A stretch of 64,000 bases of DNA from an uncultured Actinomycetes bacterium (lineage in GTDB: Bacteria > Actinomycetota > JAICYB01), in NCBI GenBank assembly GCA_964520325.1, contig CAZFOB010000003.1, positions 154,745 to 218,744 on the forward strand, given 5' to 3'. The position numbers and the translations under genes are program-made. Shown here piece after piece: positions 18,761 to 42,671 of the stretch. The notes under the pieces are model-generated. The model had not been told where the DNA came from. It saw only the letters and a program-made list of their open reading frames with translations, and did no database searches. How positions within the stretch are numbered: position 1 is the first letter of the stretch; each line of letters opens with the position of its first letter.

Positions 18761-18773
18761 CGAGGAGGTCAGC

Positions 18774-18971
18774 ATGTCGAACGCCGCACTCGCTCCCCGT
18801 ATCGCCACGTACGCCCCGTCGATCTCGCTGCGCGAGCTCTGGCCGTGGGTCGTGTTCGTGGCTTCCCTTCTCGTAGTGATGCTGTACTTCGTCGGCTCGT
18901 TCCAGGGGTTGGCTTGGCTGCACGAATTCGTACACGACGGCCGTCATCTGCTCGGCTTCCCCTGCCACTGA
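18774..18971 (+). CDS. cbtB: Cobalt transporter small subunit CbtB
   Basis: 65 aa with a single TM and C-terminal HEFVHDGRHLLGFPCH, the conserved CbtB histidine-rich tail. Confidence 0.7.
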   Translation: MSNAALAPRIATYAPSISLRELWPWVVFVASLLVVMLYFVGSFQGLAWLHEFVHDGRHLLGFPCH

Positions 18972-18983
18972 GGCAGTTTCGCC

Positions 18984-19736
18984 ATGACCAGGAACCTCCT
19001 CGTCTGCGGATTGATCGCTGGCATCTGTGCGGGACTCTTCGCGTTCGGCGTTGGTCGAGTGATCGGCGAACCGGCCGTCGATCGCGCCATCGCGTTCGAA
19101 GAACGCTCGGCGCCGCCGTCCGACGAACCCGCCGAAGCGCCCATCGTGACACGCACCGTGCAGAGCACCATCGGATTACTCACGGCAGCCATCGCCTTCG
19201 GGCTCGCGATAGGCGGCCTCTTCGCCCTGGCTTTTGGTTTCGTCTACGGCCGGGCCGGCCAAGCCGACCCCGCACGGACGGCGGCCTGGCTCGCAGCAGC
19301 TGCCTTCGTCGTCGTGTTTCTTGTGCCGTTCCTGAAGTACCCGGCGAACCCGCCCGCCGTCGGCAACCCGAACACGATCGACCATCGAACGGGACTGTAT
19401 TGGGCGATGCTGGCCGTATCGCTCGGCGGTGCCGTCGGAGCGCTTCGCTTCAGGCACTATCTGGGGTCGCGAATGTCTGGTCGAAGTGCATCGTTGTCGG
19501 CGATCGGGTCTTACATCGTCGTGGTGCTCTTCGCCGGGCTCACTTTGCCTGGTGTTCACGAGGTTCCCGGCGACTTTCCCGCGGTGACGCTGTGGGCGTT
19601 CCGGCAAGCGACGGTAGGGATACAGCTCACGATGTGGGCGACGATCGGCATCGTCTTCGGATCGCTGGCACAGCGCATCATGAAGAGATCCGATCCGCGA
19701 CTTACGCCCGCGACCGCTGGCGTCCTGGAGGACTGA
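18984..19736 (+). CDS. cbtA: Cobalt transporter subunit CbtA
   Basis: 250 aa with about 5 TM helices in the typical CbtA arrangement, directly after cbtB and under the B12 riboswitch. Confidence 0.7.
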   Translation: MTRNLLVCGLIAGICAGLFAFGVGRVIGEPAVDRAIAFEERSAPPSDEPAEAPIVTRTVQSTIGLLTAAIAFGLAIGGLFALAFGFVYGRAGQADPARTAAWLAAAAFVVVFLVPFLKYPANPPAVGNPNTIDHRTGLYWAMLAVSLGGAVGALRFRHYLGSRMSGRSASLSAIGSYIVVVLFAGLTLPGVHEVPGDFPAVTLWAFRQATVGIQLTMWATIGIVFGSLAQRIMKRSDPRLTPATAGVLED

Positions 19737-19777
19737 CGAGCCGGGGCGAAGACGCCCGCTGCCCCGGCGTCGTCGAG

Positions 19778-20959
19778 ATGCGCGAGGCCGAGGACGGGTG
19801 GCTCGCTCGCGTCCGTCTTCCGGGTGGTCGGGCTACGACCGAACAGCTTGATGCCCTCGTTTCGGTAGCGAGCTTGGGGAGTGGGCTCGTCGACATCACA
19901 CGTCGCGCCAACGTTCAGATCCGGGGCCTGTCACCCGCATCCGGGCCGGCGGCCGCTTCAACCCTCGCGGACGCCGGACTGCTGCCGTCGGTCACGCACG
20001 AGCGCCTTCGCAACATCGTAGCCAGCCCGTTCGGCGGGCGGCATCCGCAAGCCATCTGCGATACGGATGCGATCGTCGAGGAGTTGGATCGCGAGCTCTG
20101 CGCCGACGGCTATCTGCAGGCGCTCCCCGAGCGGTTCGGTTTCGGGGTAGATGACGGGAGCCGCGCCCTGGCCGATCTCGACTTCGATGTCGAGCTTGGC
20201 GCTGAGACGGGCGACGCGGGGCGGTTTCGCCTGTCGATCGGTGGTTCGCCGACGGATGTGGTCACGACGCCTTCTTGCGCCGCGAGGACCGCCTTGGACG
20301 CGGCACGCGCCTTCCTTGGCGCGCGGGAGTCATCTGGGAGCCGCGCGTGGCATGTCCGAGAGATCCCCGGCGGCGCAACCTCGATCACCGGTCGCATGGG
20401 CGCCGCGATCGTGCGGCCGTCGACTCGAAGCCCTCAGCTCGCGATCCGGCCGGGGGTCTTGACGCAGCGAGACGGTCGGGTCGCGATCACGGCCCTTGCG
20501 CCGCTCGGTCGGTTGAACGGCGACATGCTGTGTTTGCTGGCCGGGCTCGTGCGACGGTGCGCGGCCGACGTTCGGTTCTCCGCCTGGCGCACGGTAACGG
20601 TCGTCGATGTCTCAGCGCGTGAAGCGGATGGCCTCGCCGACGCCATCGCGGATCTGGGCCTTCTCTTGTCGTCCGGCTCGGGATGGGAGGATCTCACCGC
20701 GTGCGTGGGCGCCGGAGCATGCGCGAAGGCGCGGGTCGATGTTCGCGCGGCTGTTGCGCAACGGGCCGGCGAGCGCACCGATCAAGCGCCGGCCGAGCAT
20801 TGGTCGGCGTGCGAACGAAGGTGCGGAGAGCCGAAGTCCGTGCCGATCAGCGTCGCTGCGACGGACACCGGGTTGGCCGTCACAGTCTTGGGGCACGCGA
20901 TCGACGTGCCCGACACCGCGGGCGCGATCGAACACCTGGCGGATGAGAGACCGCAGTGA
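19778..20959 (+). CDS. cobG: Precorrin-3B synthase (aerobic-pathway monooxygenase, sulfite/nitrite-reductase-like)
   Basis: ...LARVRLPGGRATTEQLDALVSVA...ITRRANVQIRGL... is the CobG N-terminal signature. The first ATG is 19778, but conserved CobG residues (ARCPGVVE) are encoded in-frame upstream of it, so the true start is unresolved. Confidence 0.65.
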   Translation: MREAEDGWLARVRLPGGRATTEQLDALVSVASLGSGLVDITRRANVQIRGLSPASGPAAASTLADAGLLPSVTHERLRNIVASPFGGRHPQAICDTDAIVEELDRELCADGYLQALPERFGFGVDDGSRALADLDFDVELGAETGDAGRFRLSIGGSPTDVVTTPSCAARTALDAARAFLGARESSGSRAWHVREIPGGATSITGRMGAAIVRPSTRSPQLAIRPGVLTQRDGRVAITALAPLGRLNGDMLCLLAGLVRRCAADVRFSAWRTVTVVDVSAREADGLADAIADLGLLLSSGSGWEDLTACVGAGACAKARVDVRAAVAQRAGERTDQAPAEHWSACERRCGEPKSVPISVAATDTGLAVTVLGHAIDVPDTAGAIEHLADERPQ

Positions 20960-21582
20960 GCGACTATGTCCGGGACGGTCCCGAGATCTACCGTCGCTCG
21001 TTCGCGACGATCCGGGACGAAGCCGAGCTCGACGGCCTCGATCCAACCGTTGCACGAACCGCCGTACGCATGATCCATGCATGCGGGATGGTCGACCTTA
21101 CGTCCGACATCGACGTCTCCGACGGTTTCGCTTCCGCCGCCGTCGGTGCCCTGCGACGTGGTGCTCTGATCCTCTGTGACACCGCGATGGTGTCCGCCGG
21201 CATCACGCGGAGCAGGCTCCCGGCAGGGAACGAAGTGGTCTGCACGCTGTCGGATCCGAGCGTGCCGCAGCTGGCTGCCGTGCTCTGTACGACACGCAGC
21301 GCGGCGGCACTCGAGCTGTGGCGAGGGCGCATCGCCGGCTCACTCGTCGTGATCGGGAACGCGCCGACGGCCCTCTTCCGTTTGCTCGAGATCGTCGAGT
21401 CAACCGATGAACGTCCCGCCGCCGTCGTCGGCGTTCCCGTCGGCTTCGTCGGTGCGGCAGAATCGAAGGTCGCGCTCACACGCCACCCGTCACGGCTCGA
21501 GCATCTCGTCGTCCATGGGCGCCGCGGCGGCAGTGCGATCGCCGCGGCCGCCGTCAATGCGCTCGCAAGCGAGGATGAGTGA
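20956..21582 (+). CDS. cobH: Precorrin-8X methylmutase
   Basis: MSDYVRDGPEIYRRSFATIRDEAEL... is the CobH/CbiC family. GTG overlaps the cobG stop. Confidence 0.85.
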   Translation: MSDYVRDGPEIYRRSFATIRDEAELDGLDPTVARTAVRMIHACGMVDLTSDIDVSDGFASAAVGALRRGALILCDTAMVSAGITRSRLPAGNEVVCTLSDPSVPQLAAVLCTTRSAAALELWRGRIAGSLVVIGNAPTALFRLLEIVESTDERPAAVVGVPVGFVGAAESKVALTRHPSRLEHLVVHGRRGGSAIAAAAVNALASEDE

Positions 21583-23093
21583 ACCGGGCCACGGCATCGA
21601 CGAGCGGAAGACTGTTCGGCGTCGGACTCGGGCCGGGCGATCCCGAGCTGGTCACGCTCAAGGCGCGCCGCGTCATCGAGCAAGCCGATGTCGTGGCGTA
21701 TCCGACGGCACGCCACGGGCGGAGCATCGCGAGAAGCATCGCCGCTCCGTACCTGCGCTCCGGGCAGACCGAGATCGCGATGACGTTCCCGGTGACGACC
21801 GAGGACGTCGTCCCTCACGGAGGCTACGAGCGGGCGCTGCGTGAGTTCTACGACGATCAAGCCGAACGCCTCGCCTCGCACCTCGATGCCGGTCGAGCGG
21901 TCGTCGTTCTGTGCGAGGGTGATCCGTTCTTCTACGGCAGTTACATGTACCTCCACGAACGACTCGCGCATCGCTACGCGACCGAGGTCGTCCCCGGCGT
22001 AACGTCGTTCAGCGCCGCGGCCGCAGCGGCTGGCGTCCCCCTCGCCAAGAGCGACGACGTGCTCACGGTGCTGCCGGGAACGCTTCCACCGGAGGTGATC
22101 GCGCATCACCTCCGGACAACCGATGCGGCCGTCGTGTTGAAACTCGGACGGACGTTCGACTCGGTGCGCCAAGCCGCCGAGCGAGCCGAGGTCGGGGACC
22201 GGACCATCTATGTAGAACGAGCCAGCACGCCAGACGAACGCTTCATGATGCTGCGCGATGTCGACGGCACGATCCCTTATATGTCGCTATTGCTCGTGCC
22301 GACGGCTAACGCAACAGATACCTCCCAGCGCCACGATCGAGGCGCCGAGGTGGCCGTCGTTGGTCTCGGACCCGCTGGTCCGCAGTGGCTGACGCCCGAG
22401 GCGGCAACGGCGCTCGCGGGAGCGGACGATCTGGTCGGGTACGTGGGGTACCTCGATCGCGTGCCACCGCGCGCCGGACAACAACGCCACGAGAGCGACA
22501 ACCGAGACGAGGCAGAACGCGCGCATCTCGCGTTGAAGCTGGCGGCGTCGGGACGGCGCGTCGCCGTCGTATCCTCCGGTGATCCGGGAATCTTCGCGAT
22601 GGCCGCGGCGGTGCTGGAAGCATTCGAAGCTTGCGGTGACGAATACCGCGAGGTCGCTGTTCGCATCGTCCCGGGAGTGTCGGCCATGCAGGCCGCCGCA
22701 GCGCGGGTCGGGGCGCCGCTCGGACACGACTTCTGCGTCATCTCGCTCTCCGACCAGCTCAAGCCGTGGGACGTGGTCGAGCGACGACTCGAGGCAGCGG
22801 GGGCATCCGACATGGCCGTTGCCATCTACAACCCCGCCTCGCGAACGCGGCGCGAGCAGCTCGAGCGTGCTCGGGCGGTGCTGCTCGTCCATCGAGGGCA
22901 GGACACACCGGTAGTGGTCGCGCGCGACGTCGGCGGTAAGCAGGAGCAGATCTCGGTGTCTACACTCGCAGGCTTCGAAGCTGCATCGGTCGACATGCGG
23001 ACACTGCTGATCGTCGGCTCATCGACGACCCGAGTGGTCGATGGAGCCGACGGTACACCGCGCGTGTACACGCCTCGGAGCTACCCGGGCTAG
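21579..23093 (+). CDS. cobIJ: Fused precorrin-2 C20-methyltransferase / precorrin-3B C17-methyltransferase
   Basis: Two tetrapyrrole-methylase domains: GVGLGPGDPELVTLKA... and later VVGLGPAGPQWLTPEA.... This is the fusion arrangement known from mycobacterial cobIJ. Confidence 0.85.
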   Translation: MNRATASTSGRLFGVGLGPGDPELVTLKARRVIEQADVVAYPTARHGRSIARSIAAPYLRSGQTEIAMTFPVTTEDVVPHGGYERALREFYDDQAERLASHLDAGRAVVVLCEGDPFFYGSYMYLHERLAHRYATEVVPGVTSFSAAAAAAGVPLAKSDDVLTVLPGTLPPEVIAHHLRTTDAAVVLKLGRTFDSVRQAAERAEVGDRTIYVERASTPDERFMMLRDVDGTIPYMSLLLVPTANATDTSQRHDRGAEVAVVGLGPAGPQWLTPEAATALAGADDLVGYVGYLDRVPPRAGQQRHESDNRDEAERAHLALKLAASGRRVAVVSSGDPGIFAMAAAVLEAFEACGDEYREVAVRIVPGVSAMQAAAARVGAPLGHDFCVISLSDQLKPWDVVERRLEAAGASDMAVAIYNPASRTRREQLERARAVLLVHRGQDTPVVVARDVGGKQEQISVSTLAGFEAASVDMRTLLIVGSSTTRVVDGADGTPRVYTPRSYPG

Positions 23094-23830
23094 AGGTTCC
23101 GCCTGAGCCAGTCGAGTGCCTGGTCGACCGTGCTCACCGTGTGTGCGCTCGGACGAGCCGGTCGCCGGACGACGATCACGGGTAGTCCTCGCATCCGGGC
23201 AGCATCGAGCTTCGGTCGCGTGTACGTCCCGCCGCTGTCCTTCGTGACAAGCAGGTCGATGCGATGCTCGTCGATCAGCGCGAGCTCGCCATCAAGGACG
23301 TACGGTCCCCGGTCCAGCAGGACCTGATGCCGGCAAGGAAGCGGGAGCTCCGGTGTCTCGACGCAACGGATGAGGAACCACGCATCGGTCATGGCGCTGA
23401 ACGACGCGAGTCCTTGTCGTCCCGTTGTGAGGAACACACGGCTCCCGAGATCAGCAACGGCCGAGGCGGCATCATCCAGCGAGTCGACCCAGTGCCACCG
23501 ATCCTGCGTAGTTGGCGTCCATCCCGGTCGTTCCAATCGCACGAGCCGGATACCGGCGTCGGAACATGCCTGCGCGGCCGAAGAGGAGATGCGCTCGGCG
23601 AAGGGGTGGGTTGCGTCGACGACTGCAACAACCTCGTGATCGATGAGCCAGCGCGCGAGCGCGGTTGGTCCACCGAAGCCGCCGATGCGAACGTCGCCCG
23701 CCGGCAGTCGCGGGTTCGTCACACGTCCGGCGAGAGAGGAGACGACCGGGATGCCGGCATCGACGAGCTCGTCGGCGAGCTCACGCGCCTCGCTTGTTCC
23801 GCCCAGGACGAGGACGACGCGTTCCCCCAT
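23090..23830 (-). CDS. cobK: Precorrin-6A reductase
   Basis: MGERVVLVLGGTSEARELADEL... is the CobK/CbiJ family. Convergent with cobIJ (4-nt end overlap). Confidence 0.85.
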   Translation of the reverse strand: MGERVVLVLGGTSEARELADELVDAGIPVVSSLAGRVTNPRLPAGDVRIGGFGGPTALARWLIDHEVVAVVDATHPFAERISSSAAQACSDAGIRLVRLERPGWTPTTQDRWHWVDSLDDAASAVADLGSRVFLTTGRQGLASFSAMTDAWFLIRCVETPELPLPCRHQVLLDRGPYVLDGELALIDEHRIDLLVTKDSGGTYTRPKLDAARMRGLPVIVVRRPARPSAHTVSTVDQALDWLRRNL

Positions 23831-23836
23831 CGGCGA

Positions 23837-24628
23837 CTACGCGTCCTCGGGCGCAGCTTTATCGGCGCGCGGCGGCGCCCTGAGGAGGTAGGTGTCCATG
23901 ACCCAGCCCTTCTCCTCCCGAGCCTTGCGCCGGACCTGCTGGATCTGCTCAGAGACGTCGGAGACTCGCCCCGACACGAGGATCTCGTCTGTCGTACCGA
24001 GGTACGCACCCCAATAGATGTGCGTGTCGGGGTCGGCGATCTCCGAGAACGTGCAGTCGGCGTCGAGCATCACCACGACATCGTTGCTGCAGTCGGGGAA
24101 CCCCTCGTTCGCGAGCCGGCGGCCGGTCGTGATGTGGATGGGATCACCGACCCGGTTCAGCCCGATCCGGTGGGCGGCGGCGAGCGCCTGCACGCTCGTG
24201 ACGCCCGGCACGACGTCGTACGAGAACGCGACGTTGCCGCGCGCGGCGATGTCGGAGACGATCGCGAGCGTGCCGTCGTAGAGCGACGGATCACCCAATA
24301 CGAGGAACGCACCGCATCGATCCTCGTCGAGCTCGGTTTCGATCAGGCGCTCATAGACGTCGGCTCGCCGCCGGCGCCAGTCTTCAACGGCCGAGCGATA
24401 GCCAGGGGCCGAGCGGTCGCGCTCCGGGTCGCGCACCTCGACGAACCGGTACGACGCGTTCTCGACGTAGCGTTCGCAGATCTGTTTACGGAGGTCCACG
24501 AGGTCGTGTTTCTCACGTCCCTTGTCGACGAGGAAGAAGACGTCGGTAGCGTTGAGCGCCTTGATGGCCTGCACCGTGATGTGCTCCGGATCGCCAGGGC
24601 CGACGCCGATGATGCGGACGTGTCTCAT
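23837..24628 (-). CDS. cobF: Precorrin-6A synthase (deacetylating)
   Basis: MRHVRIIGVGPGDPEHITVQAIKALNATDVFFLVDKGREKHDLVDLRKQICERY... matches the CobF-type N-terminus. Start located at the ATG complement of 24626-24628. Confidence 0.7.
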   Translation of the reverse strand: MRHVRIIGVGPGDPEHITVQAIKALNATDVFFLVDKGREKHDLVDLRKQICERYVENASYRFVEVRDPERDRSAPGYRSAVEDWRRRRADVYERLIETELDEDRCGAFLVLGDPSLYDGTLAIVSDIAARGNVAFSYDVVPGVTSVQALAAAHRIGLNRVGDPIHITTGRRLANEGFPDCSNDVVVMLDADCTFSEIADPDTHIYWGAYLGTTDEILVSGRVSDVSEQIQQVRRKAREEKGWVMDTYLLRAPPRADKAAPEDA

Positions 24629-25392
24629 CAGGTGGTGTGCTCCGTAGTGAGTGGACGGTTGCGGGAATCCGAATAGAGGTGGCTCTCGTCGAACCCGTGG
24701 CTCGCGAGCGCTGGTCCGACGAGGATCACGGCGGTGCGGACGACGCTGGCCTCGTCCACCTGCGCCGCGATCGTCTCGAGCGTGCCGCGAAGGATCAGCT
24801 CGTCGGGCCAGCCGGCGCGAGCGACGATCGCAACTGGACAGTCGCTCCCGTAGGCGGGCTCGAGCATCTCGACGATCTCGCCGATCGCTTGCGCGCCGAG
24901 GTGGATAGCAAGTGTTGCTTGGTGGATGGCGAGAGCCGGGAGCTGTTCGCCTTCGGGCAGCGGTGTCGACATTCGGTGGTACCTCGTGAGGATCACCGTC
25001 TGCGCTATGCCCGGCAGCGTGAGCTCCTGACGCAGCGCCGCGGCTGCAGCCGCGAAGGCGGGCACACCCGGCGTGAGGTCCCACGGGATGGCGAGTGAGT
25101 CCAGACGCCGCGTCTGCTCGGCGACCGCGCTGTAGATGGACAGATCGCCCGATTGCAACCGAGCAACGTCCTCACCGTTGCTGTGCGCGACGCGCAGCAC
25201 CTCGATGATCTCGTCGAGCGTCAGATGCTGCGTGTCGACGAGTCGTGCGCCGGCGGGCGCGTGGGCGAGCACCTCCGCCGGAACGATCGATCCGGCGTAT
25301 ACGCAGACGGGACTTTCCGCGATCAGCCGCCGGCCGCGCAGCGTGAGGAGATCGGGGGCACCGGGACCGGCGCCGACGAAGTGAACCGTCAT
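24628..25392 (-). CDS. cobM: Precorrin-4 C11-methyltransferase
   Basis: MTVHFVGAGPGAPDLLTLRG... Start ATG at 25392. The longer six-frame ORF adds 17 spurious residues. Confidence 0.85.
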   Translation of the reverse strand: MTVHFVGAGPGAPDLLTLRGRRLIAESPVCVYAGSIVPAEVLAHAPAGARLVDTQHLTLDEIIEVLRVAHSNGEDVARLQSGDLSIYSAVAEQTRRLDSLAIPWDLTPGVPAFAAAAAALRQELTLPGIAQTVILTRYHRMSTPLPEGEQLPALAIHQATLAIHLGAQAIGEIVEMLEPAYGSDCPVAIVARAGWPDELILRGTLETIAAQVDEASVVRTAVILVGPALASHGFDESHLYSDSRNRPLTTEHTT

Positions 25393-26603
25393 CGCGGACC
25401 CTTCCGCACGATCCACTGGACCACCGGGAAGTGTCCGCGCCATCCGGTGAACCCTCCGATGGGCTCGGCCCCTTCGATCGAGATCCGGACGAGCTCCCCG
25501 CCGAACTTCTCGCGGGCGGTAACGAGTCGTTGCTCACCTTCGAGCGTCACGGCGTTGGCGACGAGACGCCCCGCTGTTGCGAGTCGCTCCCAGCACTGTT
25601 CGAGGAGCCCCGGCACGCTCGCGCCGCCGCCGACGAAGATCGCGTCCGGGCGGTCGAGCTCGGCGAGTGCGTCCGGAGCTTCGCCGTGCCGGATATCGAG
25701 TCGCGGCACACCGAGCTCGCGCGCGTTCCTCGCGATCCGTTCGGCCCGCAACGCGTTCGCCTCGATCGCGATCGCGCGGGCGGTCGGCTCGCAGCGCAGC
25801 CACTCGATCGCGATCGAGCCGCTGCCCGCACCCACGTCCCAAAGGAGCTCGCCGGGCAGGGGGCCGAGCGCCGCGAGGGTGATCGCGCGTACTTGTCGCT
25901 TCGTGAGCTGGCCGTCGTGTTCGTACGCCTCGTCCGGCAGGCCCGGCGTGAGCGGGAGCGATGGTGTGCCGGGATCGGTCAGACATTCGATCGCTACGAG
26001 ATACGGGGCGTCCGGCTCGTGGTTCTCCCAACGTTGCGCCGTTGTCGCGATGACGTGTTCGTCCGGCCCTCCGAGCTGCTCCAGCACGATCATCCGGCTC
26101 TGACCTAGACCGTGGACGCACAGCATGCGCGAGACATCGTCGGCCCCCGTGCGTCCATGTGTGTAGACGATCAGGCGCCGGCCCGGTTGGAGCCACCGGA
26201 CGAGCGTCTCAGACGGATGGGCAACCAGACTCACGAGATCGGCCTGGGCGCCGGCCCAGCCGAGCCGCGCGCAGGCGAGCGAGAACGCCGATGCCGACGG
26301 CAGAACGGTGAGCCGCTTCGGATCGACGCGCCGGGCAAGCGTCGCGCCGATGCCGTGCAGCATCGGGTCGCCGCTGGCGAGGACGCACGCGGGACCGATC
26401 GATCCCGCCACCAGTTCGTCCAACAGTGGATCGATGGGTGATGGCCAGCAACGACGTTCGGCGCTGGTGTTCGGAACAAGGGCCAGTTGCCGATGCGAGC
26501 CGACGAGCAACTTCGCGTCGAGGACGGCCAGCTGTGCGCGCTTGCCGAGTCCCTCCCACCCGTCGGCTCCGATGCCGACAACCGTCAGATGCGCATCCGT
26601 CAT
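25389..26603 (-). CDS. cobL: Precorrin-6Y C5,15-methyltransferase (decarboxylating), CbiE/CbiT fusion
   Basis: MTDAHLTVVGIGADGWEGL... plus a C-terminal SAM-MT half with ...LWDVGAGSGSIAIEW.... Start ATG at 26603. Confidence 0.85.
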   Translation of the reverse strand: MTDAHLTVVGIGADGWEGLGKRAQLAVLDAKLLVGSHRQLALVPNTSAERRCWPSPIDPLLDELVAGSIGPACVLASGDPMLHGIGATLARRVDPKRLTVLPSASAFSLACARLGWAGAQADLVSLVAHPSETLVRWLQPGRRLIVYTHGRTGADDVSRMLCVHGLGQSRMIVLEQLGGPDEHVIATTAQRWENHEPDAPYLVAIECLTDPGTPSLPLTPGLPDEAYEHDGQLTKRQVRAITLAALGPLPGELLWDVGAGSGSIAIEWLRCEPTARAIAIEANALRAERIARNARELGVPRLDIRHGEAPDALAELDRPDAIFVGGGASVPGLLEQCWERLATAGRLVANAVTLEGEQRLVTAREKFGGELVRISIEGAEPIGGFTGWRGHFPVVQWIVRKGPR

Positions 26604-27637
26604 GTGCAGTCCGCGAGCGCCTGCACGAGCCGCTCGTTGGCCTCGGCATCTCGCGCCGTTAGGCGGATGTGTTCCGCACGCAGGCCCGGAAATGACGCCG
26701 CCGGACGTACGGCGATCGCACGCTCTCGCAACGCCGCGACCACCGACTCGCCGTCGGCGACCTCGATCAGGCAGAAGTTGGCCGCGCCCGGCCACGTGCG
26801 GACGTTGTCGAGCCGGGAGAGGCGCGAGGCGAGATCGTCTCGTTCCTCCTGCGCGCGCACGGCTGCTGCCCTGAGCGCTTCCGGGCGCCCAGCCGCTGCG
26901 GTCAGAGCTGCAAGCGCAAGCGCGTTCGTCGACCAAGGCTGGCGAACATCACGGAGCCGCTTCGCGAGGTGCGATGGCGCCACCGCGTACCCGGCGCGCA
27001 AGCCCGGGATCGAAAGCGACTTCGTCAGGCTTCGTATCACGATCACGTCGGCGAGTCCTTCGCGCACGAGGGAGCCGGGTTCGCCGCACACCAGATCCAT
27101 GAATGACTCATCGATGACGACGATTCGACCTGGGCGACACACCGCGCGCATCACATCGGCCGGCTCGAGCCTTCCGTCTGGGGACGCCGGGTTTCCGGCG
27201 ATCACGAGATCGGCATCGGCGGGTACGGCGCCGGGTTCGAGGACGAAATCTCGTTCGGCCTCCCGAATTACACGTGTAACCGGAACGTCATGGGCTCGCA
27301 GCGCCGCCTCTGCCTCCGTGAAGGCGGGGTGTACGCACGCGGCATGTGTCGGCTTGAGCGCGGCGGGGAGCAGCCACAGCGCTTCGGCAGCGCCGTTGGT
27401 CGGAACGATCTCGTGTCGCTCACGGCCGTGCAGCGCGGCGAGTGCTGCGATGGCATCGGTGTCGTCCGGGTAACGATCAGCGTCTCGTTCGAGCGCTTCG
27501 CGCAATGCGACTCGCAGCCACTCCGGCGGTCCACCTGCGAGCACGTTCACGGCATGGTCGGTGTAGCCGTGATGAAGCTCTCCGTCGCCGTGCCGGCGCA
27601 GGTCGTCGATCCGGTCGGTCGCCGGTCGCACCGTCAT
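26600..27637 (-). CDS. cobC: Class I/II aminotransferase-fold cobalamin protein (mycobacterial CobC / Salmonella CobD threonine-phosphate decarboxylase type)
   Basis: PLP-enzyme layout with the lysine motif ...IRSLTKSLSIPGLRAGY.... Position between cobB and cobL. Start ATG at 27637. Confidence 0.75.
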   Translation of the reverse strand: MTVRPATDRIDDLRRHGDGELHHGYTDHAVNVLAGGPPEWLRVALREALERDADRYPDDTDAIAALAALHGRERHEIVPTNGAAEALWLLPAALKPTHAACVHPAFTEAEAALRAHDVPVTRVIREAERDFVLEPGAVPADADLVIAGNPASPDGRLEPADVMRAVCRPGRIVVIDESFMDLVCGEPGSLVREGLADVIVIRSLTKSLSIPGLRAGYAVAPSHLAKRLRDVRQPWSTNALALAALTAAAGRPEALRAAAVRAQEERDDLASRLSRLDNVRTWPGAANFCLIEVADGESVVAALRERAIAVRPAASFPGLRAEHIRLTARDAEANERLVQALADCT

Positions 27638-28995
27638 GCCGGCGCGTGAACGGCGAGCGACGCGGCACGGGCAAGGCGCAGTGCCGCGCCGGGGAAGGCG
27701 GCCCAATGCAGGTGGAGATAGCTCGCGTGGATCGAACCGGACACGAAGCCTTCATCTCTGACCACGCCGCGCGCTGCGAGCGTCCAGGCCGGGGTAGCCC
27801 CCTGAGCGGGCTCGACTTGCGAGTAGTGAAACTCGTGCCCGCGGAACGTTCCACCGCGGTCGGCGTAGATGCTGTCGTTCGCGGCGGTCGCTTCCCGGTA
27901 TCCCAGCGTGAGCCGTTCCGTCATGCGTCCGCGGCCATCCAGCACGCCGCACATCTCATGGCCGTCGAGCTCCGCGCAGAGGTAGAGCAAGCCCCCGCAC
28001 TCCGCAACGATCGGACGTCCCGCTCCCGCGAAGGCCTTGACGTCCGATCGGAGTGAGTCATTGGCGGCGAGCTCCTCACCGAAGACCTCCGGGAAGCCGC
28101 CGGCAAGCGTCAGCGCGCCGGCGCCGTCCGGCAGGTGCGGATCGGTGAGCGGATCGAAGGGGAGCAGCTCGGCCCCCGCGGCGGTGAGTAGCTCGAGGTT
28201 CTCCTGGTAGTGGAACGAAAACGCCGGCCCCTGGGCGATCGCGATGCGTGCGCGCGACGCCGGCGACTCAGAAGGAGCGGGATCCCAAGCCGGGCCCCCG
28301 ACATCGGGTGAGGCGCGCGCGAGCCCGACCACCGCGTCCAGATCGACGTGGGTAACGATCTCCTGCGCCAGACGGTCGAGGATCTTCTTCGTTTCGATGT
28401 CGCGCTCGTCGGCGGGCACGAGCCCGAGATGTCGTTCTGGGGCCGTGATCTGATCGTCGCGGCGAAGGGCGCCCAGCACCGGAAGGCCGAGCGGCTCGAT
28501 CGCGTCGCGCAGGAGTTGCTCGTGGAACTCGGAGCCGACGCGATTGAGGATCACGCCGGCGATCTCGAGCTCAGGATCGAAGGTGCGGTACCCGTGGACG
28601 ATCGCAGCCACCGATCGAGCCATCGACGCGGCATCGACGACAAGGAGCACCGGTGCGTGCAAGAGCTTCGCGACGTGCGCCGTCGACGCGAGCTCCCCGC
28701 GTCCCGACACGCCGTCGAACAGACCCATGACGCCCTCGATCACAGCGATGTCGGCATCGGACGTCCCGTGCCGGAAGAGTGGAGCGATGAGTTCGGGTCC
28801 GCTGAGGAACGCGTCGAGGTTTCGGCCGGGCCGGCCCGAGGCGACCGCGTGATAGGTCGGATCGATGAAGTCCGGGCCGACCTTGAAGCCTTGGACGCGA
28901 AGTCCACGCGAGCGAAGCGCGCCGATGAGACCGCACGACACCGACGTCTTCCCCGCGCTCGAGCTCGTGCCGGCGACGACGACGCGGGGGATCAC
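27634..28995 (-). CDS. cobB: Hydrogenobyrinic/cobyrinic acid a,c-diamide synthase
   Basis: ...VIPRVVVAGTSSSAGKTSVSCGLIGAL... is the CobB/CbiA ATPase N-terminus, with a glutamine amidotransferase C-half. GTG 28995 overlaps the upstream stop (GTGA). The long Arg-rich N-terminal extension of the six-frame ORF is rejected. Confidence 0.8.
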   Translation of the reverse strand: MIPRVVVAGTSSSAGKTSVSCGLIGALRSRGLRVQGFKVGPDFIDPTYHAVASGRPGRNLDAFLSGPELIAPLFRHGTSDADIAVIEGVMGLFDGVSGRGELASTAHVAKLLHAPVLLVVDAASMARSVAAIVHGYRTFDPELEIAGVILNRVGSEFHEQLLRDAIEPLGLPVLGALRRDDQITAPERHLGLVPADERDIETKKILDRLAQEIVTHVDLDAVVGLARASPDVGGPAWDPAPSESPASRARIAIAQGPAFSFHYQENLELLTAAGAELLPFDPLTDPHLPDGAGALTLAGGFPEVFGEELAANDSLRSDVKAFAGAGRPIVAECGGLLYLCAELDGHEMCGVLDGRGRMTERLTLGYREATAANDSIYADRGGTFRGHEFHYSQVEPAQGATPAWTLAARGVVRDEGFVSGSIHASYLHLHWAAFPGAALRLARAASLAVHAPA

Positions 28996-39264: not shown

Positions 39265-39440
39265 ACCTTCCCCGGGATCACGCGTCCCGAACGAAGCACT
39301 CGTGGCGGTCGAGTGTCCTGACTCCCGGATCGTCGCTCCTCCCGCCTTCCGGCCCTCTTGGCCGTGGCTTGAAGGGAATCGCTCCCCGGTTACAGTGGCG
39401 CAACCGTCCCGGATTCACACCGGGTTCCTCACGCCGCCAC
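39265..39440 (-). ncRNA. Second cobalamin (B12) riboswitch (minus strand)
   Basis: Reverse complement reads ...GGTGTGAATCCGGGACGGTTGCGCCACTGTAACCGGGGAGCGATTCCCTTCAAGCCACGGCC...GGGAGTCAGGACACTCGACC..., nearly collinear with riboswitch 1 (GCCACTG core, B12-box-like AGTCAGGACAC). It sits upstream of the ATG at 39259. Confidence 0.65.
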
Positions 39441-39487
39441 GCTGACGTCGCTACCGTACCAGACCGCCGGATAACGACCGTCTCGAA

Positions 39488-40252
39488 CTAGTGGACGACC
39501 GCGGCGATGCTGAGCGTCGTCAGCTCGATCAGCTCGATCGTTGCGCCGAACGTATCCCCGGTCACGCCGCCGAGCCATGACCGGAACGCGATCCCAGAGA
39601 GTGCCCCGACAGCGACGGCGGCTCCCGCGAGGAGAACCCCCAGACGTCCCGCGACAAGGACGGCGATCGCAACACTGATCGCCGCCGCCGCGACCGCCCG
39701 CCAGCGGGGGCTCTGCGTCAGCGACTCGCCAGCACCACCCTCCGATCGCGCGTACGGCAAGACGGCGGCCAAGACAACGGGCGCGGCGCGAGCGAGCGAG
39801 CTGGCCGCTATTGAAACAAGGACGACGTTGCCGGACTCTGTCAACGCGGTGAGCGCGGCCGCCTTGATCAACAGGCTGAGAACCAGCGCGACGACCCCGT
39901 AGGCACCGACCGCGTGGTCGCGCATGATCCCCAGCGCCCGCTCGCGTGTGTGAGCCCCCAGCGCGTCTGCCGTGTCGGCCAGACCGTCGAGATGCAACGC
40001 GCCCGTGAGCACTGTCCCGACGGCGAGCGCAATACCGGCGGCCAGCCATGGTGTCGCCCGCGGAGCGAGCGACGTGGTGACTCCACCGACGGCTGCACCC
40101 ACCCCCGCGCCGATCAGGGGGAAGAACATGCCCCCGCGTGCGACATCGAGACCGTTGAACGCAACCCGGCGACCAAGGGGGATCCGGGTCAGGAACGCCA
40201 CCGCTGCAACGAGGCCGCGGAGCTCGGTGCTAACGCTCCTACCGACCCGCAT
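39488..40252 (-). CDS. cobS: Adenosylcobinamide-GDP ribazoletransferase (cobalamin synthase)
   Basis: MRVGRSVSTELRGLVAAVAFLTRIPLG... is the CobS/CobV membrane protein family. Start ATG at 40252. Confidence 0.8.
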   Translation of the reverse strand: MRVGRSVSTELRGLVAAVAFLTRIPLGRRVAFNGLDVARGGMFFPLIGAGVGAAVGGVTTSLAPRATPWLAAGIALAVGTVLTGALHLDGLADTADALGAHTRERALGIMRDHAVGAYGVVALVLSLLIKAAALTALTESGNVVLVSIAASSLARAAPVVLAAVLPYARSEGGAGESLTQSPRWRAVAAAAISVAIAVLVAGRLGVLLAGAAVAVGALSGIAFRSWLGGVTGDTFGATIELIELTTLSIAAVVH

Positions 40253-41393
40253 CGGTGACCTGGGCCTCCTCGAACGTCGCCATCTCGTTGAGGATGGCGA
40301 TGCTGCTCGCCAGCAGAGGTAGGACCAGGGCCGCGCCGCTTCCTTCGCCCAAGCGGAGGCCGAGGTCGAGGAGTGGCTCCAGGCCAAGGGATTCGAGAAC
40401 GAGCGCGTGACCGGGTTCCGCAGAGCGATGGGAGGCGATCATCGACTCCACCGCCGGCGGCGCGATCGCGACGGCCGCGAGGGCGGCTGCGCCCGTGATG
40501 AACCCATCGAGCACGACAGGAACGCGATCGGCGGCACTGCCCAGGATCACGCCGGTCAGAAAGGCGATCTCGAACCCGCCCAGCGCCGCCAGGACCCCGA
40601 CGCCATCGCGAACGTCGACGCGGTTGCACGCCAGGCCGCGCGCGACAACGTCGATCTTGCGTTGCAGGCCGACATCGTCGATGCCGGTCCCGAGTCCGCA
40701 GACCGCGGATGGATCGGCGCCAAGGAAAAGCGCCGTCATCGCGCTCGCGGATGTGGTGTTCCCGATCCCCATCTCGCCAAGCGCCAAAACGTTGACACCC
40801 TCACCCGCGAGCTCGGAGGCCACTTCGGCCCCCGAGACGATCGCGCGGAGCGCGTGATCGCGCGTCATCGCGGGGCCGTCGACGAAGCTCCCGGTTCCGG
40901 GTCCAACACGGCGAGATCGCACTCCGTCGAGTTCCAGAGGGACGGCCACACCGGCGTCGACGACGACGAGGCGTGCATTCGTTTGTCGCGCAAGGACGTT
41001 GATCGCCGCACCTCCGGCCGCGAAGTTCATGAGCATCTGCGCTGTTACTTCTTGTGGGTAGGCGGAAACCCCCTCACGAGCAACCCCGTGGTCTCCGGCG
41101 GCGACGACGATGGCGGGGTCGAGTTTCGGAGGGACACTTCCGAGGACGGCAACGAGCTGGCAGCCGATCTCTTCTAGCCTGCCAAGGCTGCGGCGCGGCT
41201 TGGTCTTGGAATCGAACGCACGTTGCGTTCGATCGCGGATCGTCGCATCTACGGCGGTGATCCGGTTGGCCAGCTGAACCAGCTGTTTTTCGAGCGAGAT
41301 CAGCGAACGATCTCCGACAACGAGAGCGGCTGTTCGAGTTGCAGCACTCGTCCGGCAACGACGAAGAATGTGCGATCCGCTTTCTCGGCCCAT
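40239..41393 (-). CDS. cobT: Nicotinate-nucleotide--dimethylbenzimidazole phosphoribosyltransferase
   Basis: ...SLGRLEEIGCQLVAVLG...LALGEMGIGNTTSASAM... are CobT signatures. The only in-frame ATG/GTG upstream of the conserved region is ATG 41393, which overlaps cobU by 94 nt, so the start is uncertain. Confidence 0.7.
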   Translation of the reverse strand: MGRESGSHILRRCRTSAATRTAALVVGDRSLISLEKQLVQLANRITAVDATIRDRTQRAFDSKTKPRRSLGRLEEIGCQLVAVLGSVPPKLDPAIVVAAGDHGVAREGVSAYPQEVTAQMLMNFAAGGAAINVLARQTNARLVVVDAGVAVPLELDGVRSRRVGPGTGSFVDGPAMTRDHALRAIVSGAEVASELAGEGVNVLALGEMGIGNTTSASAMTALFLGADPSAVCGLGTGIDDVGLQRKIDVVARGLACNRVDVRDGVGVLAALGGFEIAFLTGVILGSAADRVPVVLDGFITGAAALAAVAIAPPAVESMIASHRSAEPGHALVLESLGLEPLLDLGLRLGEGSGAALVLPLLASSIAILNEMATFEEAQVTDAGR

Positions 41394-41839
41394 GTGGCGT
41401 TGACTTCGCCGAGCAAGTCCCGGTATCGGCGGCCGAGCGGGTGCATCGGCACGAGCCCAAGACCGACCTCGTTGCTGACAGCTAACGTGAGGCCCGGTCT
41501 GTCGCAAGCGGCAGCAGCGGCTCCGGTGGCCTCTTGTCGGACCTCGGAGTCGGTCGCCGTTTCCAATCGGTTCGAGAGCCACAGCGATAGGCAGTCGATG
41601 ATCAAGCAAGCATGCACATCGATGTCCCGGATCGCCGCTTCGAGCAGCGCCGGCTCCTCGATCGTCTGCCAATCACTCGGACGCTCGAGTCGGTGATTCG
41701 CGATCCGTATGCTCATTTCCTCGTCGCCCGCCTCACCGGTTGCGAGGAACACCACCTCACCCGCATGCCCTTCCGCGAGCTTCACCGCGAGCCGCGACTT
41801 GCCGCTGCGGGCGCCACCTAAGAACAGAGCGAGCGTCAC
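41300..41839 (-). CDS. cobU: Bifunctional adenosylcobinamide kinase / adenosylcobinamide-phosphate guanylyltransferase
   Basis: MTLALFLGGARSGKSRLAVKLAEG... carries the CobU/CobP P-loop. Confidence 0.85.
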   Translation of the reverse strand: MTLALFLGGARSGKSRLAVKLAEGHAGEVVFLATGEAGDEEMSIRIANHRLERPSDWQTIEEPALLEAAIRDIDVHACLIIDCLSLWLSNRLETATDSEVRQEATGAAAAACDRPGLTLAVSNEVGLGLVPMHPLGRRYRDLLGEVNATWAEKADRTFFVVAGRVLQLEQPLSLSEIVR

Positions 41840-42210
41840 GGGACGACCTTTCCAGTTTCTCGCGCGGCCCTGCTCAATTCAGGACAGCTGACGGGGCATC
41901 ACCGAAAGACCTCTCGAGACTTTACGCAAAGGAATGGCGGCACTCACCACGCGGCTTGCTCCGTTCTGGTCTTCGGTGGAAGCAATGCGGTCTCGAACGC
42001 GTGCGCCGACGTCTGCGTTGCGAACGCAGCCTACCGGTCCGAGCTGATCTGCGGCGCCGGCCGTGAAACCGGCTCCTACCTGCAGTTTCGTGTCGCAAGG
42101 GGTTCGCAGTCGTTCTCCGCGATTCTCGGCGTAGAGCGGGACGAATACGGGACGCCTCAAGTGATCGTTGGCGGTACCTCCTGCCACAACTTGTCTGGTG
42201 TCTAGCTTCC

Positions 42211-42588: not shown

Positions 42589-42671
42589 CCGCGGGTTGCG
42601 CCTGGGAGTTCCCGGTTCTATCTTCTTGCATGAGGACTGCAAGTTTCTGATCTCGGACCGGGAGGTTCCTG

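What the first reader, a model, noticed from the sequence alone, without database searches (positions are those of the whole stretch)
23090..41839. A 17-gene minus-strand cobalamin supra-operon split by an internal riboswitch, with pervasive 4-nt start/stop overlaps
From cobU to cobK every gene is on the minus strand. Adjacent ORFs overlap by GTGA/ATGA/ATGGTAG at cobD/cobQ, cbiB/cobC-phosphatase, ApgM-like/cobB, cobB/cobC, cobC/cobL, cobL/cobM, cobM/cobF and cobO/ApgM-like. The only sizeable internal gap (39260-39487) holds a second B12 riboswitch. Thus cobUTS (nucleotide-loop assembly) lies upstream of, and apparently outside, the riboswitch. The 13 downstream genes (phosphatase through cobK) sit behind it. 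Together with the plus-strand riboswitch-cbtBA-cobGHIJ unit this is a compact, almost complete aerobic (cobG/cobF-containing) pathway under two-tier B12 feedback. cobF is present here, in contrast to M. tuberculosis, which has lost cobF.
Basis: partly seen in the sequence, partly recalled or inferred. Interest (0 to 1): 0.5.

Follow-up and report, generated by a model that had tools for sequence, protein, structure and literature searches.

The report
Riboswitch-controlled vitamin B12 biosynthesis gene cluster
This is an ordinary, nearly complete oxygen-dependent vitamin B12 biosynthesis cluster from an uncultured soil actinobacterium related to Gaiella, controlled by two B12-sensing RNA switches that each appear to have their own promoter; the one unexplained part is a conserved phosphoglycerate-mutase-like gene.

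Summary
The minus strand from 41839 to 23090 carries 16 cobalamin genes, not 17. Two Rfam Cobalamin riboswitches are real: 39291-39473(-) at 80.5 bits and 18612-18722(+) at 72.2 bits. The start/stop overlaps exist as described.

The "supra-operon split by an internal riboswitch" reading is only partly supported. In all 11 related loci checked, the same riboswitch sits directly before the same histidine-phosphatase-led operon, whatever gene lies upstream. In 14 of 14 riboswitch copies a rare TANNNT hexamer, which looks like a promoter -10 box, lies 21-26 nt upstream of the aptamer core. In the window it falls in the 29-nt spacer after the cobS stop. The likeliest layout is therefore three transcription units:
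- an unregulated cobUTS unit;
- a riboswitch-led 13-gene operon;
- a convergent riboswitch-cbtBA-cobGHIJ operon.

There is no terminator-like U-tract. A conserved hairpin pairs with the ribosome-binding site, so control is probably translational and spreads downstream through the overlapping genes.

All of this is a known kind of system. The one loose end is the short ApgM-like gene, which sits next to cobB in 10 of 10 cob clusters examined. It is neither a true phosphoglycerate mutase nor a HomK, and it may supply the missing L-threonine phosphate.

The parts
41919..41924 (-). TAAAGT, a candidate -10 hexamer for the cobUTS unit, 80 nt upstream of the cobU GTG
   Evidence: It is one of only two TANNNT hexamers in the 330-nt region upstream of cobU. 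No riboswitch is found there. This is a weak inference.
41300..41839 (-). cobU (adenosylcobinamide kinase / guanylyltransferase)
   Evidence: NF004469, 164.7 bits against a cutoff of 161.
40239..41303 (-). cobT (NaMN:DMB phosphoribosyltransferase). The start is uncertain: CTG at 41303 or ATC at 41300. ATG at 41393 is unlikely.
   Evidence: NF000996, 422 bits, with the profile match starting at 41282. The only canonical start, ATG 41393, would overlap cobU by 94 nt. In that stretch GC3 is 40% in the cobT frame against 70% in the cobU frame, and homologues do not align to it.
39488..40252 (-). cobS (adenosylcobinamide-GDP ribazoletransferase)
   Evidence: TIGR00317, 124.8 bits against a cutoff of 110. 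It overlaps cobT by 14 nt.
39453..39458 (-). TACGGT, a -10-like promoter hexamer for the riboswitch-led operon, 29 nt after the cobS stop
   Evidence: A TANNNT hexamer lies 21-26 nt upstream of the aptamer core in 14 of 14 riboswitch copies. Background density is 0.00045 per nt.
39291..39473 (-). Cobalamin riboswitch aptamer (Rfam limits). The closing helix is GUGGCGG (about 39439-39433) with CCGCCAC (39308-39302).
   Evidence: RF00174, 80.5 bits, E=3.2e-18. It is conserved before the orthologous gene in 11 related loci.
39262..39297 (-). Expression platform: anti-SD CUUC (39296-39293), hairpin CGGGA-CGCGUGA-UCCCG (39289-39273), SD GGAAGG (39271-39266), then 6 nt to the ATG at 39259
   Evidence: Alignments A2 and A3. 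With the proposed pairing 92.7% of cells pair, against 45-64% with slid partners, and 3 pairs show compensatory change. No U-tract or terminator.
38615..39259 (-). Histidine phosphatase, CobC-like (alpha-ribazole-P / AdoCbl-P phosphatase candidate); first gene of the riboswitch-led operon
   Evidence: PF00300, 131.6 bits. TIGR03162 scores 97.8, below its cutoff of 162.9.
37695..38618 (-). cbiB/cobD (adenosylcobinamide-phosphate synthase)
   Evidence: NF002276, 407.6 bits against a cutoff of 381. ATGA overlap.
36175..37698 (-). cobQ (cobyric acid synthase)
   Evidence: NF001989, 598.7 bits. GTGA overlap.
32432..36178 (-). cobN (cobaltochelatase large subunit); alternative start at 36190
   Evidence: TIGR02257, 1156.6 bits against a cutoff of 822.
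30532..32427 (-). Fused ChlI/ChlD-type cobaltochelatase subunit
   Evidence: TIGR02442, 603.7 bits, below its cutoff of 779. It is a single ORF.
29942..30535 (-). cobO (corrinoid adenosyltransferase)
   Evidence: NF004637, 244.1 bits against a cutoff of 185.
28992..29948 (-). Short ApgM-like metalloenzyme, 318 aa, function unknown
   Evidence: PF01676 and PF10143. AF2 model with pLDDT 95.4. Best PDB match is 2zkt, TM 0.79-0.82. Its relatives lie next to cobB in cob clusters in 10 of 10 contexts examined.
27634..28995 (-). cobB (a,c-diamide synthase)
   Evidence: NF002204, 528.2 bits.
26600..27637 (-). cobC (Rv2231c-type; L-threonine-O-3-phosphate decarboxylase family)
   Evidence: NF005915, 337.3 bits (cutoff 360). 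TIGR01140, 222.4 bits (cutoff 290).
25389..26603 (-). cobL (CbiE + CbiT)
   Evidence: TIGR02467, 146.3 bits, and TIGR02469, 111.5 bits.
24628..25392 (-). cobM (precorrin-4 C11-methyltransferase)
   Evidence: TIGR01465, 292.2 bits.
23837..24628 (-). cobF (precorrin-6A synthase)
   Evidence: TIGR02434, 364.5 bits against a cutoff of 195.8.
23090..23830 (-). cobK (precorrin-6A reductase). Its stop overlaps the stop of the convergent cobIJ (23090-23093).
   Evidence: NF005968, 324.2 bits. ORF coordinates.
18583..18588 (+). TAAGGT, a -10-like hexamer for the plus-strand unit
   Evidence: It has the same 22-nt offset from the aptamer core as the hexamer of the minus-strand unit.
18612..18722 (+). 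Second Cobalamin riboswitch. Its platform hairpin GGGA..UCUC and SD GGAGG (18764-18768) precede the cbtB ATG at 18774.
   Evidence: RF00174, 72.2 bits. Sequence.
18774..23093 (+). cbtB (18774-18971), cbtA (18984-19736), cobG (about 19733-20959), cobH (20956-21582), cobI-cobJ fusion (21579-23093)
   Evidence: PF09489 and PF09490. TIGR02435, 213.9 bits (cutoff 234.8), and NF006136, 321.5 bits. Two TP_methylase domains.

Best explanation
The region is a standard aerobic (late cobalt insertion) cobalamin biosynthesis cluster of a Thermoleophilia-type actinobacterium. It is most likely organised as three transcription units.

1. cobU-cobT-cobS has its own riboswitch-free upstream region. It would be expressed regardless of B12, which suits nucleotide-loop assembly and corrinoid salvage.
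2. A 13-gene operon runs from the histidine phosphatase to cobK. It starts from its own promoter, whose -10-like hexamer TACGGT lies in the 29-nt spacer after the cobS stop. Its leader is an AdoCbl-type riboswitch.
3. A convergent operon, riboswitch-cbtBA-cobGHIJ, is built the same way.

When B12 is abundant, ligand binding stabilises a conserved hairpin whose 3' side and flanking anti-SD tract hold the Shine-Dalgarno sequence. This blocks translation of the first gene. Nearly every downstream gene starts within or next to the stop codon of its predecessor, so lost translation of gene 1 should spread down the operon. It would do so through lost translational coupling and probably through Rho-dependent polarity on untranslated RNA.

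Shown here: gene identities, the riboswitches, the junction overlaps, conservation of the unit, the conserved hexamer, and conserved pairing around the SD.
Inferred: promoter activity, the translational mode of control, coupling and polarity, and constitutive cobUTS expression.
For: - Gene families.
- Riboswitches. None upstream of cobU.
- The same riboswitch lies directly before the orthologous His_Phos gene in L001, L002, L004-6, L081 and L084-88. The upstream gene there varies: cobS (L087), cobF-cobK (L088), thiE (L001), a divergent bluB-cobT fusion (L002, L084-86), or a divergent cobT or cobTS (L004-6, L081).
- A TANNNT hexamer lies 21-26 nt before the aptamer core in 14 of 14 copies. T, A and T are invariant while the middle three bases vary. 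Background density is 0.00045 per nt, so about 0.003 is expected per 7-nt window.
- The platform hairpin plus anti-SD:SD pairing gives 92.7% paired cells, against 45-64% for slid controls, with 3 compensatory pairs. The same design precedes cbtB.
- No U-tract terminator was found.
- Overlaps are shown and are conserved in relatives.
- No TANNNT lies within 150 nt upstream of any internal gene start of the 13-gene unit.
- Regulation through a kissing loop and the P13 hairpin that affects ribosome loading and mRNA abundance is established for cobalamin riboswitches (PMC5028336).
Against: - No transcript data exist.
- The sigma-70 consensus scan found no promoter. That scan needs an E. coli-like -35 box, which actinobacterial promoters often lack.
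- The related sequences are not independent, so the 14 of 14 count overstates the statistical weight.
- Shuffle controls for the platform helix are only modestly exceeded (37 of 500 shuffles reach the observed pairing), because most columns are invariant.
- The MFE fold of the whole leader is no more stable than shuffled sequence (z = -0.54).
- No terminator was found after cobS, so read-through transcripts that embed the riboswitch internally may well exist.
Confidence: 0.65

Rival explanations
1. One 16-gene transcript starts upstream of cobU. The riboswitch works as a true internal element of that polycistronic RNA, so cobUTS is made constitutively and the 13 downstream genes are shut off by B12.
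For: All 16 genes share a strand. Only 14 nt separate the cobS stop from the Rfam aptamer limit. No terminator-like site follows cobS. A riboswitch that sequesters the ribosome-binding site would work equally well in an internal position. L087 has the same cobS -> riboswitch order. In L088 the aptamer even overlaps the 3' end of cobK.
Against: The riboswitch-led unit also exists with divergent or unrelated upstream genes, where it must have its own promoter. The same rare TANNNT hexamer at the same offset is present in the window. The outer helix that Rfam extends towards cobS is full of non-canonical pairs.
Confidence: 0.2
2. The riboswitch acts by premature transcription termination at an intrinsic terminator. 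Operon-wide repression would then be transcriptional and the gene overlaps irrelevant.
For: Many cobalamin riboswitches of Firmicutes work this way (general knowledge). The hairpin at 39289-39273 is GC-rich.
Against: No run of U follows the hairpin; it is followed directly by the SD and the ATG. The terminator scan found nothing there. The same holds in all ten aligned relatives.
Confidence: 0.05
3. Most genes of the cluster have their own promoters, and the overlaps are only a by-product of genome compaction.
For: ATGA and GTGA overlaps are common throughout this genome.
Against: There are no intergenic spacers to hold promoters. On the coding strand inside the 13-gene unit only 9 TANNNT hexamers occur, none within 150 nt upstream of a start. 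Gene order and overlaps are conserved at about 60-85% protein identity.
Confidence: 0.05

Closest known systems
B12-riboswitch-controlled cob operons of Actinobacteria (for example M. tuberculosis PPE2-cobQ1-cobU and the Propionibacterium cbiM riboswitch; PMC8192938)
   Same: An RF00174 aptamer lies in the leader of cobalamin biosynthesis or cobalt transport genes and gives end-product repression. The genomes are high-GC and the platform lacks a terminator U-tract.
   Different: Here two riboswitches cover almost the whole pathway in two convergent operons, 13 and 5 genes long. The nucleotide-loop genes cobUTS lie outside that control. In M. tuberculosis, by contrast, cobU is behind a riboswitch.
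Aerobic cobalamin pathway clusters of Pseudomonas denitrificans and Rhodobacter capsulatus (cobG, cobF, cobN route)
   Same: cobG, cobH, cobI, cobJ, cobK, cobL, cobM, cobF, cobB, cobN, cobO, cobQ, cobC, cobD(cbiB), cobP(U), cobU(T) and cobV(S) are all present.
   Different: The chelatase partner is a fused ChlI/ChlD protein instead of CobS/CobT. cobI and cobJ are fused. No cobA, cobR, bluB, cobW, cobE or bluE/pduX was seen in the genes I annotated across the 64-kb window. An ApgM-like gene is inserted between cobO and cobB.
env8HyCbl/btuB-type regulatory domain (L5-L13 kissing loop, ribosome-binding site in or next to P13; PMC5028336)
   Same: A short conserved hairpin lies directly after the aptamer with the ribosome-binding site next to it. 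Its loop contains an invariant ACGC that could pair with the invariant GCGC of the aptamer loop.
   Different: Here the SD lies 3' of the hairpin and pairs with an upstream pyrimidine tract, rather than sitting in the loop. The kissing loop itself was not tested.
HomK (TIGR02535, BT2402), the ApgM-like homoserine phosphotransferase; and two homologues next to cobD in Bathycorpusculaceae genomes that the authors speculate make L-threonine-O-3-phosphate (bioRxiv 10.1101/2024.10.14.618325)
   Same: The window's ApgM-like protein shares the fold, the catalytic Ser, all metal ligands and the Glu after the metal-binding Asp (PDE motif). It sits in a cobalamin operon that contains the threonine-phosphate decarboxylase gene.
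   Different: It is about 80 aa shorter, with a reduced cap domain. The specificity position is Gly or Ala, not Glu as in HomK or Lys as in iPGM. It scores far below both TIGRFAM cutoffs. Its constant neighbour is cobB, not cobD.

Membership tests
Cobalamin riboswitch (Rfam RF00174) | Covariance-model score at or above the curated gathering score (31.5 bits) | tested here: met
   80.5 bits at 39291-39473(-) and 72.2 bits at 18612-18722(+).
Cobalamin riboswitch (Rfam RF00174) | Located in the 5' leader of a B12-related gene, with this position conserved in relatives | tested here: met
   The hits lie directly before the His_Phos/cob operon and before cbtB. Orthologous hits occur in 11 related loci.
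Cobalamin riboswitch (Rfam RF00174) | Binds a corrinoid and changes expression | not testable with these tools
   This needs in-line probing or reporter assays.
Translationally acting (RBS-sequestering) riboswitch | The SD pairs with a conserved anti-SD within the expression platform, and there is no intrinsic terminator | tested here: inconclusive
   92.7% of cells pair, against 45-64% for slid controls, with 3 compensatory pairs. However, 37 of 500 shuffles reach the observed pairing. No U-tract.
Single operon ('supra-operon') of 16 genes | One promoter and no internal transcription start between cobS and the phosphatase gene | tested here: not met
   A conserved TANNNT -10-like hexamer lies at a fixed offset before the aptamer in 14 of 14 copies, including 39458-39453 in the window. 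This is sequence evidence only; transcripts were not mapped.
Aerobic (oxygen-dependent) cobalamin pathway | CobG (precorrin-3B synthase) present | tested here: inconclusive
   TIGR02435 scores 213.9 bits, just below its cutoff of 234.8. The NIR_SIR_ferr domain and the conserved cbtA-cobG-cobH synteny support the assignment.
Aerobic (oxygen-dependent) cobalamin pathway | CobF (precorrin-6A synthase) and CobN (late cobalt chelatase) present | tested here: met
   TIGR02434, 364.5 bits against a cutoff of 195.8. TIGR02257, 1156.6 bits against a cutoff of 822.
CobC alpha-ribazole/AdoCbl-5'-phosphate phosphatase (TIGR03162) | Score above the curated cutoff | tested here: not met
   97.8 bits against a cutoff of 162.9. 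Only the superfamily PF00300 is met. The role is inferred from operon position.
Cofactor-independent phosphoglycerate mutase, ApgM type (TIGR00306 / NF003104) | Score above the cutoff, full-length cap domain, and Lys three residues before the metal-binding Asp (HxKxxD) | tested here: not met
   172.1 bits against a cutoff of 320. The cap segment is about 70 aa shorter, and the position is Gly or Ala in 44 of 45 members. The catalytic Ser and all metal ligands are conserved.
HomK homoserine phosphotransferase (TIGR02535) | Score above the cutoff, and Glu at the specificity position (E299 of BT2402) | tested here: not met
   136.9 bits against a cutoff of 446.3. Sequences that score as HomK have HVEAPDE, whereas this family has HV(G/A)APDE. 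I inferred which column corresponds to E299 from the K/E split between iPGM and HomK sequences; I did not align BT2402 itself.

The most novel reading that the evidence does not exclude
The short ApgM-like protein (28992-29948) represents a cobalamin-specific clade of the alkaline-phosphatase/iPGM superfamily. The clade is marked by Gly/Ala at the specificity position, an invariant PDE motif and an invariant DHGCDP motif. It would carry out the step with no assigned gene in these clusters: formation of L-threonine-O-3-phosphate for the aminopropanol linker. The reaction would be phosphoryl transfer through a phosphoserine enzyme intermediate from a non-ATP donor. That would make it a third, non-orthologous solution alongside PduX and BluE.
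Probability: 0.3. Interest if true: 0.55.

Novelty: new member of a known kind. Interest (0 to 1): 0.28.

Why it matters
The main finding matters little beyond annotation. It documents the typical B12 cluster layout of Thermoleophilia, a group of abundant but poorly studied soil actinobacteria. It also shows that the 'internal' riboswitch is better read as the leader of its own operon. Genome-based predictions of B12 producers could use this layout.

The ApgM-like gene is the part worth an experiment. The L-threonine kinase step is unassigned in most Actinobacteria. A phosphotransferase of this superfamily acting in B12 synthesis would extend the recent HomK discovery to a second pathway.

Tried and rejected
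- The MFE fold of the whole leader was uninformative (z = -0.54).
- The E. coli-type promoter scan found nothing in 38900-42700. I replaced it with a comparative search for the actinobacterial TANNNT hexamer.
- I looked for a third riboswitch upstream of cobU at E<=1 and found none.
- The genome-contig scan with CbiB showed that the window's species is not among the representative genomes (best 63-65% identity). Close-relative synteny therefore came from the look-up of encoding contigs (L087).
- I tested for a kinase-like gene that might fill the ApgM-like gene's place in Propionibacteriales cob clusters. The gaps between cobC and cobT in L018 and L040 hold cysG/cobA, a His_Phos gene and cbtA, and no kinase.
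- I checked whether nearer outgroups of the ApgM-like clade that carry Glu at the specificity position (P0160, P0268) sit in cob clusters. They do not.
- Literature searches for an ApgM-like gene in B12 clusters returned only the GapMind 2026 speculation about two archaeal homologues.
- The residue numbering given for BT2402 in that preprint appears internally inconsistent: D346/H347 match 2zkt numbering. I therefore located the specificity column by comparing sequences that score as iPGM or as HomK, not by number.
- I did not pursue the gene content of L006 and L081 downstream of cobO.

Full report
**What is there.** Rfam scanning of the whole window gives exactly two hits above gathering score, both RF00174 Cobalamin. 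One is at 39291-39473 on the minus strand (80.5 bits, E=3e-18). The other is at 18612-18722 on the plus strand (72.2 bits).

NCBIfam and Pfam scans identify every minus-strand ORF between 41839 and 23090 as a cobalamin gene. In order they are:
- cobU, cobT, cobS;
- the riboswitch;
- a CobC-like histidine phosphatase, cbiB, cobQ, cobN, a fused chlI/chlD chelatase subunit, cobO;
- a short ApgM-like metalloenzyme;
- cobB, cobC (threonine-phosphate decarboxylase family), cobL, cobM, cobF, cobK.

That is 16 genes, not 17.

On the plus strand the second riboswitch is followed by cbtB, cbtA, cobG, cobH and a cobI-cobJ fusion. This unit ends at 23093 and overlaps the stop codon of the convergent cobK by 4 nt.

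The rest of the 64-kb window holds unrelated metabolism plus metH (44553-48017). None of the flank genes I annotated is cobA, bluB, cobW or a threonine kinase.

**Junctions.** One search prints every junction.
- ATGA or GTGA 4-nt overlaps occur at phosphatase/cbiB, cbiB/cobQ, cobQ/cobN (or 16 nt with the alternative start), chlID/cobO, ApgM-like/cobB, cobB/cobC, cobC/cobL and cobL/cobM.
- cobO/ApgM-like overlaps by 7 nt (ATGGTAG), cobM/cobF by 1 nt (TGATG), and cobT/cobS by 14 nt.
- cobN/chlID are separated by 4 nt and cobF/cobK by 6 nt.

These overlaps are not a peculiarity of this cluster. Neighbouring unrelated operons in the window show them too. The same junctions overlap in the same way in relatives at 60-85% protein identity, including the 7-nt cobO/ApgM-like overlap in every locus examined.

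**Whose genome.** The closest matches are Thermoleophilia: Gaiella occulta, Conexibacter and Solirubrobacterales MAGs. The nearest relative found is L087 (GCA_973961355.1), with CobN 84% and CobQ 82% identical. It has the identical gene order, including cobS directly upstream of the riboswitch and cobF on the same strand.

**Is the riboswitch 'internal' to a supra-operon?** The unit riboswitch -> His_Phos -> (cbiB) -> cobQ -> cobN -> chlID -> cobO -> ApgM-like -> cobB... is conserved. An RF00174 hit lies directly before the phosphatase gene in all 11 related loci that cover the region: L001, L002, L004, L005, L006, L081 and L084-L088.

The gene upstream of it is not conserved:
- co-directional cobS in the window and L087;
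- co-directional cobF-cobK in L088, where the aptamer even overlaps the end of cobK;
- co-directional thiE in Gaiella;
- a divergent bluB-cobT fusion in L002 and L084-86;
- a divergent cobTS in L004-6, and a divergent cobT in L081.

Where the neighbour is divergent, the riboswitch operon must have its own promoter immediately upstream of the aptamer. I anchored all copies on the invariant GAGGAAC core. In every one of 14 riboswitch instances (12 phosphatase-operon copies and 2 cbtB copies) a TANNNT hexamer, the actinobacterial -10 consensus (my own knowledge), lies 21-26 nt upstream. T, A and T are invariant, while the three middle bases vary.

TANNNT is rare in these sequences. Its density is 0.00045 per nt, so about 0.003 is expected in a 7-nt window. 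In the window the hexamers are TACGGT (39458-39453), 29 nt after the cobS stop codon, and TAAGGT (18583-18588).

The 5' part of the Rfam alignment that reaches towards cobS is full of non-canonical pairs. The real closing helix appears to be GUGGCGG/CCGCCAC, which starts a few bases after the predicted transcription start.

I therefore read the region as two tandem transcription units, cobUTS and the riboswitch-led 13-gene operon, rather than one operon interrupted by a riboswitch. Read-through from cobUTS cannot be excluded, because no terminator-like site follows cobS.

cobUTS itself has a 330-nt upstream region with no riboswitch, even at E<=1. In several relatives cobU is fused to cobC inside the regulated operon, while bluB-cobT remains outside it. 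The partition is therefore lineage-specific.

**How the switch probably works.** After the aptamer there is no U-tract. Instead a hairpin is conserved in all ten aligned relatives: GGGA-CGCNNGA-UCCC. It is followed within 1-3 nt by the SD (GGAGG, or GGAAGG in the window) and, 6-9 nt later, by the start codon. A pyrimidine tract (CCUUCC, or CUUC in the window) lies 5' of the hairpin and can pair with the SD.

Counting this structure on the alignment gives 92.7% paired cells, against 45-64% for slid partners, with three pairs showing compensatory change. Most columns are invariant, so the shuffle control is exceeded only modestly (37 of 500). The cbtB leader has the same design.

This fits the known cobalamin regulatory domain, in which ligand-dependent docking of hairpin P13 controls ribosome loading and mRNA abundance (PMC5028336). 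The invariant ACGC in the hairpin loop could form the kissing interaction with the invariant GCGC loop of the aptamer, but I did not test this.

The riboswitch would gate translation of the first gene only. The chain of overlapping stops and starts offers a plausible route for repression to reach all 13 genes, through translational coupling and Rho polarity. Inside the 13-gene unit there are only nine TANNNT hexamers on the coding strand, and none lies within 150 nt upstream of a gene start. This is weak but consistent evidence for one long transcript.

**The ApgM-like gene.** This is the only component without an assigned role.
- It is 318 aa and carries the Metalloenzyme and PhosphMutase domains.
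- The AlphaFold2 model is confident (pLDDT 95.4).
- Its closest solved structure is the Pyrococcus horikoshii ApgM-type phosphoglycerate mutase 2zkt (TM 0.79-0.82, 24% identity).
- The nucleophilic Ser and all metal ligands (D9, S53, D224, H228, D266, H267, H276) are invariant or nearly so in 45 family members.
- The cap region is about 70 residues shorter than in 400-aa relatives.
- It scores far below the cutoffs of both TIGR00306 (ApgM) and TIGR02535 (HomK).

A 2026 preprint shows that TIGR02535 proteins (HomK) form O-phosphohomoserine, probably with a non-ATP donor. It proposes a Glu/Lys specificity residue and speculates that two archaeal homologues next to cobD make L-threonine-O-3-phosphate (10.1101/2024.10.14.618325).

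I ran an exhaustive HMMER search and aligned 99 representatives. The column three residues before the metal-binding Asp is:
- Lys in true iPGMs (2zkt, 3kd8, P0239);
- Glu in sequences that score as HomK (P0183, P0200, P0233);
- Gly or Ala in 44 of 45 members of the cob-associated family.

The cob-associated family keeps the HomK-like Glu after the Asp (PDE motif) and has its own invariant DHGCDP motif.

All ten genomic contexts examined for this clade are cob clusters with the gene next to cobB, down to members only about 40% identical. Two outgroup sequences with Glu at the specificity position are not in cob clusters.

The cluster already has a CobC-like phosphatase but no gene for making threonine phosphate. 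The best guess is therefore a threonine phosphotransferase. The missing Glu and the open cap would equally allow a bulkier phospho-substrate such as AdoCbl-5'-phosphate. I put the threonine-phosphate reading at about 0.3.

**Minor points.**
- cobT has no canonical start at the expected place. ATG 41393 would overlap cobU by 94 nt, in a stretch whose GC3 is 40% in the cobT frame against 70% in the cobU frame. Homologues do not align there.
- cobG likewise has its conserved CPG motif upstream of the first canonical start.
- In both cases the upstream TGA is preceded by C. That gives a CTGA overlap, so CTG-initiated coupled translation is possible. Two cases are not statistically meaningful.
- The statement that M. 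tuberculosis lacks cobF is in the literature (PMC8192938).

**Verdict.** This is a real, well-described feature of a known kind: a riboswitch-controlled aerobic B12 cluster typical of its lineage. The 'split supra-operon' idea is better replaced by tandem operons, each with its own promoter. Novelty is low for the cluster and moderate for the ApgM-like gene.

Noticed in passing
window 28992-29948 (-); relatives in L001, L002 and L084-L090: A short (about 318 aa) ApgM-like metalloenzyme clade is found next to cobB in cob clusters in 10 of 10 contexts examined. The catalytic Ser and metal ligands are intact. The iPGM/HomK specificity position is Gly or Ala instead of Lys or Glu. Its function is unknown, and it may make L-threonine phosphate.
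   Followed up: yes
window 41300-41303 and 19733-19736: cobT and cobG both lack an ATG, GTG or TTG at the position required by their conserved N-termini. In both, a CTG overlaps the upstream gene's TGA (CTGA). This suggests non-canonical CTG starts used in coupled translation, or long unconserved N-terminal extensions.
   Followed up: partly
window 23090-23093: The two convergent riboswitch-controlled operons end with overlapping stop codons (cobIJ on the plus strand, cobK on the minus strand). No room is left for terminators, so the transcripts probably overlap as antisense at their 3' ends. The same arrangement is seen in relatives, for example a 13-nt overlap in L001.
   Followed up: no
L002 502-648, L084 280-353, L085 263-401 and L086 484-629, compared with window 39291-39473, L001, L087 and L088: The orthologous riboswitch before the same operon comes in two forms. 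The long form has the peripheral extension and scores 75-82 bits. The short form lacks about 45 nt of it and scores 33-42 bits. This may reflect a change of aptamer class and ligand preference at one locus.
   Followed up: no
L002, L084, L085, L086 and L088: Relatives carry gene fusions absent from the window. CobU is fused to the CobC aminotransferase inside the regulated operon (L002, L084-86). BluB (nitroreductase-like DMB synthase) is fused to CobT. None of the genes I annotated in the window is a bluB.
   Followed up: partly
L088 1627-1806: The riboswitch aptamer begins 15 nt inside the 3' end of the co-directional cobK gene. The promoter and leader of the downstream operon therefore overlap coding sequence.
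   Followed up: no
L004 2520-2599 and 5354-5495; L006 2510-2589 and 5353-5494: In two Solirubrobacterales MAGs, a c-di-GMP-I riboswitch and an AdoCbl-variant riboswitch (RF01482) lie a few kb from the divergent cobTS genes. I did not examine what they control.
   Followed up: no
window 44553-48017 (-): B12-dependent methionine synthase metH lies 2.7 kb from cobU. It is separated from it by a luciferase-like monooxygenase and a glyoxalase-family gene. No riboswitch is associated with it.
   Followed up: no
whole window and related loci: TANNNT hexamers are strongly depleted, about one per 2.2 kb per strand. In these genomes they are therefore unusually informative markers of candidate promoters.
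   Followed up: partly
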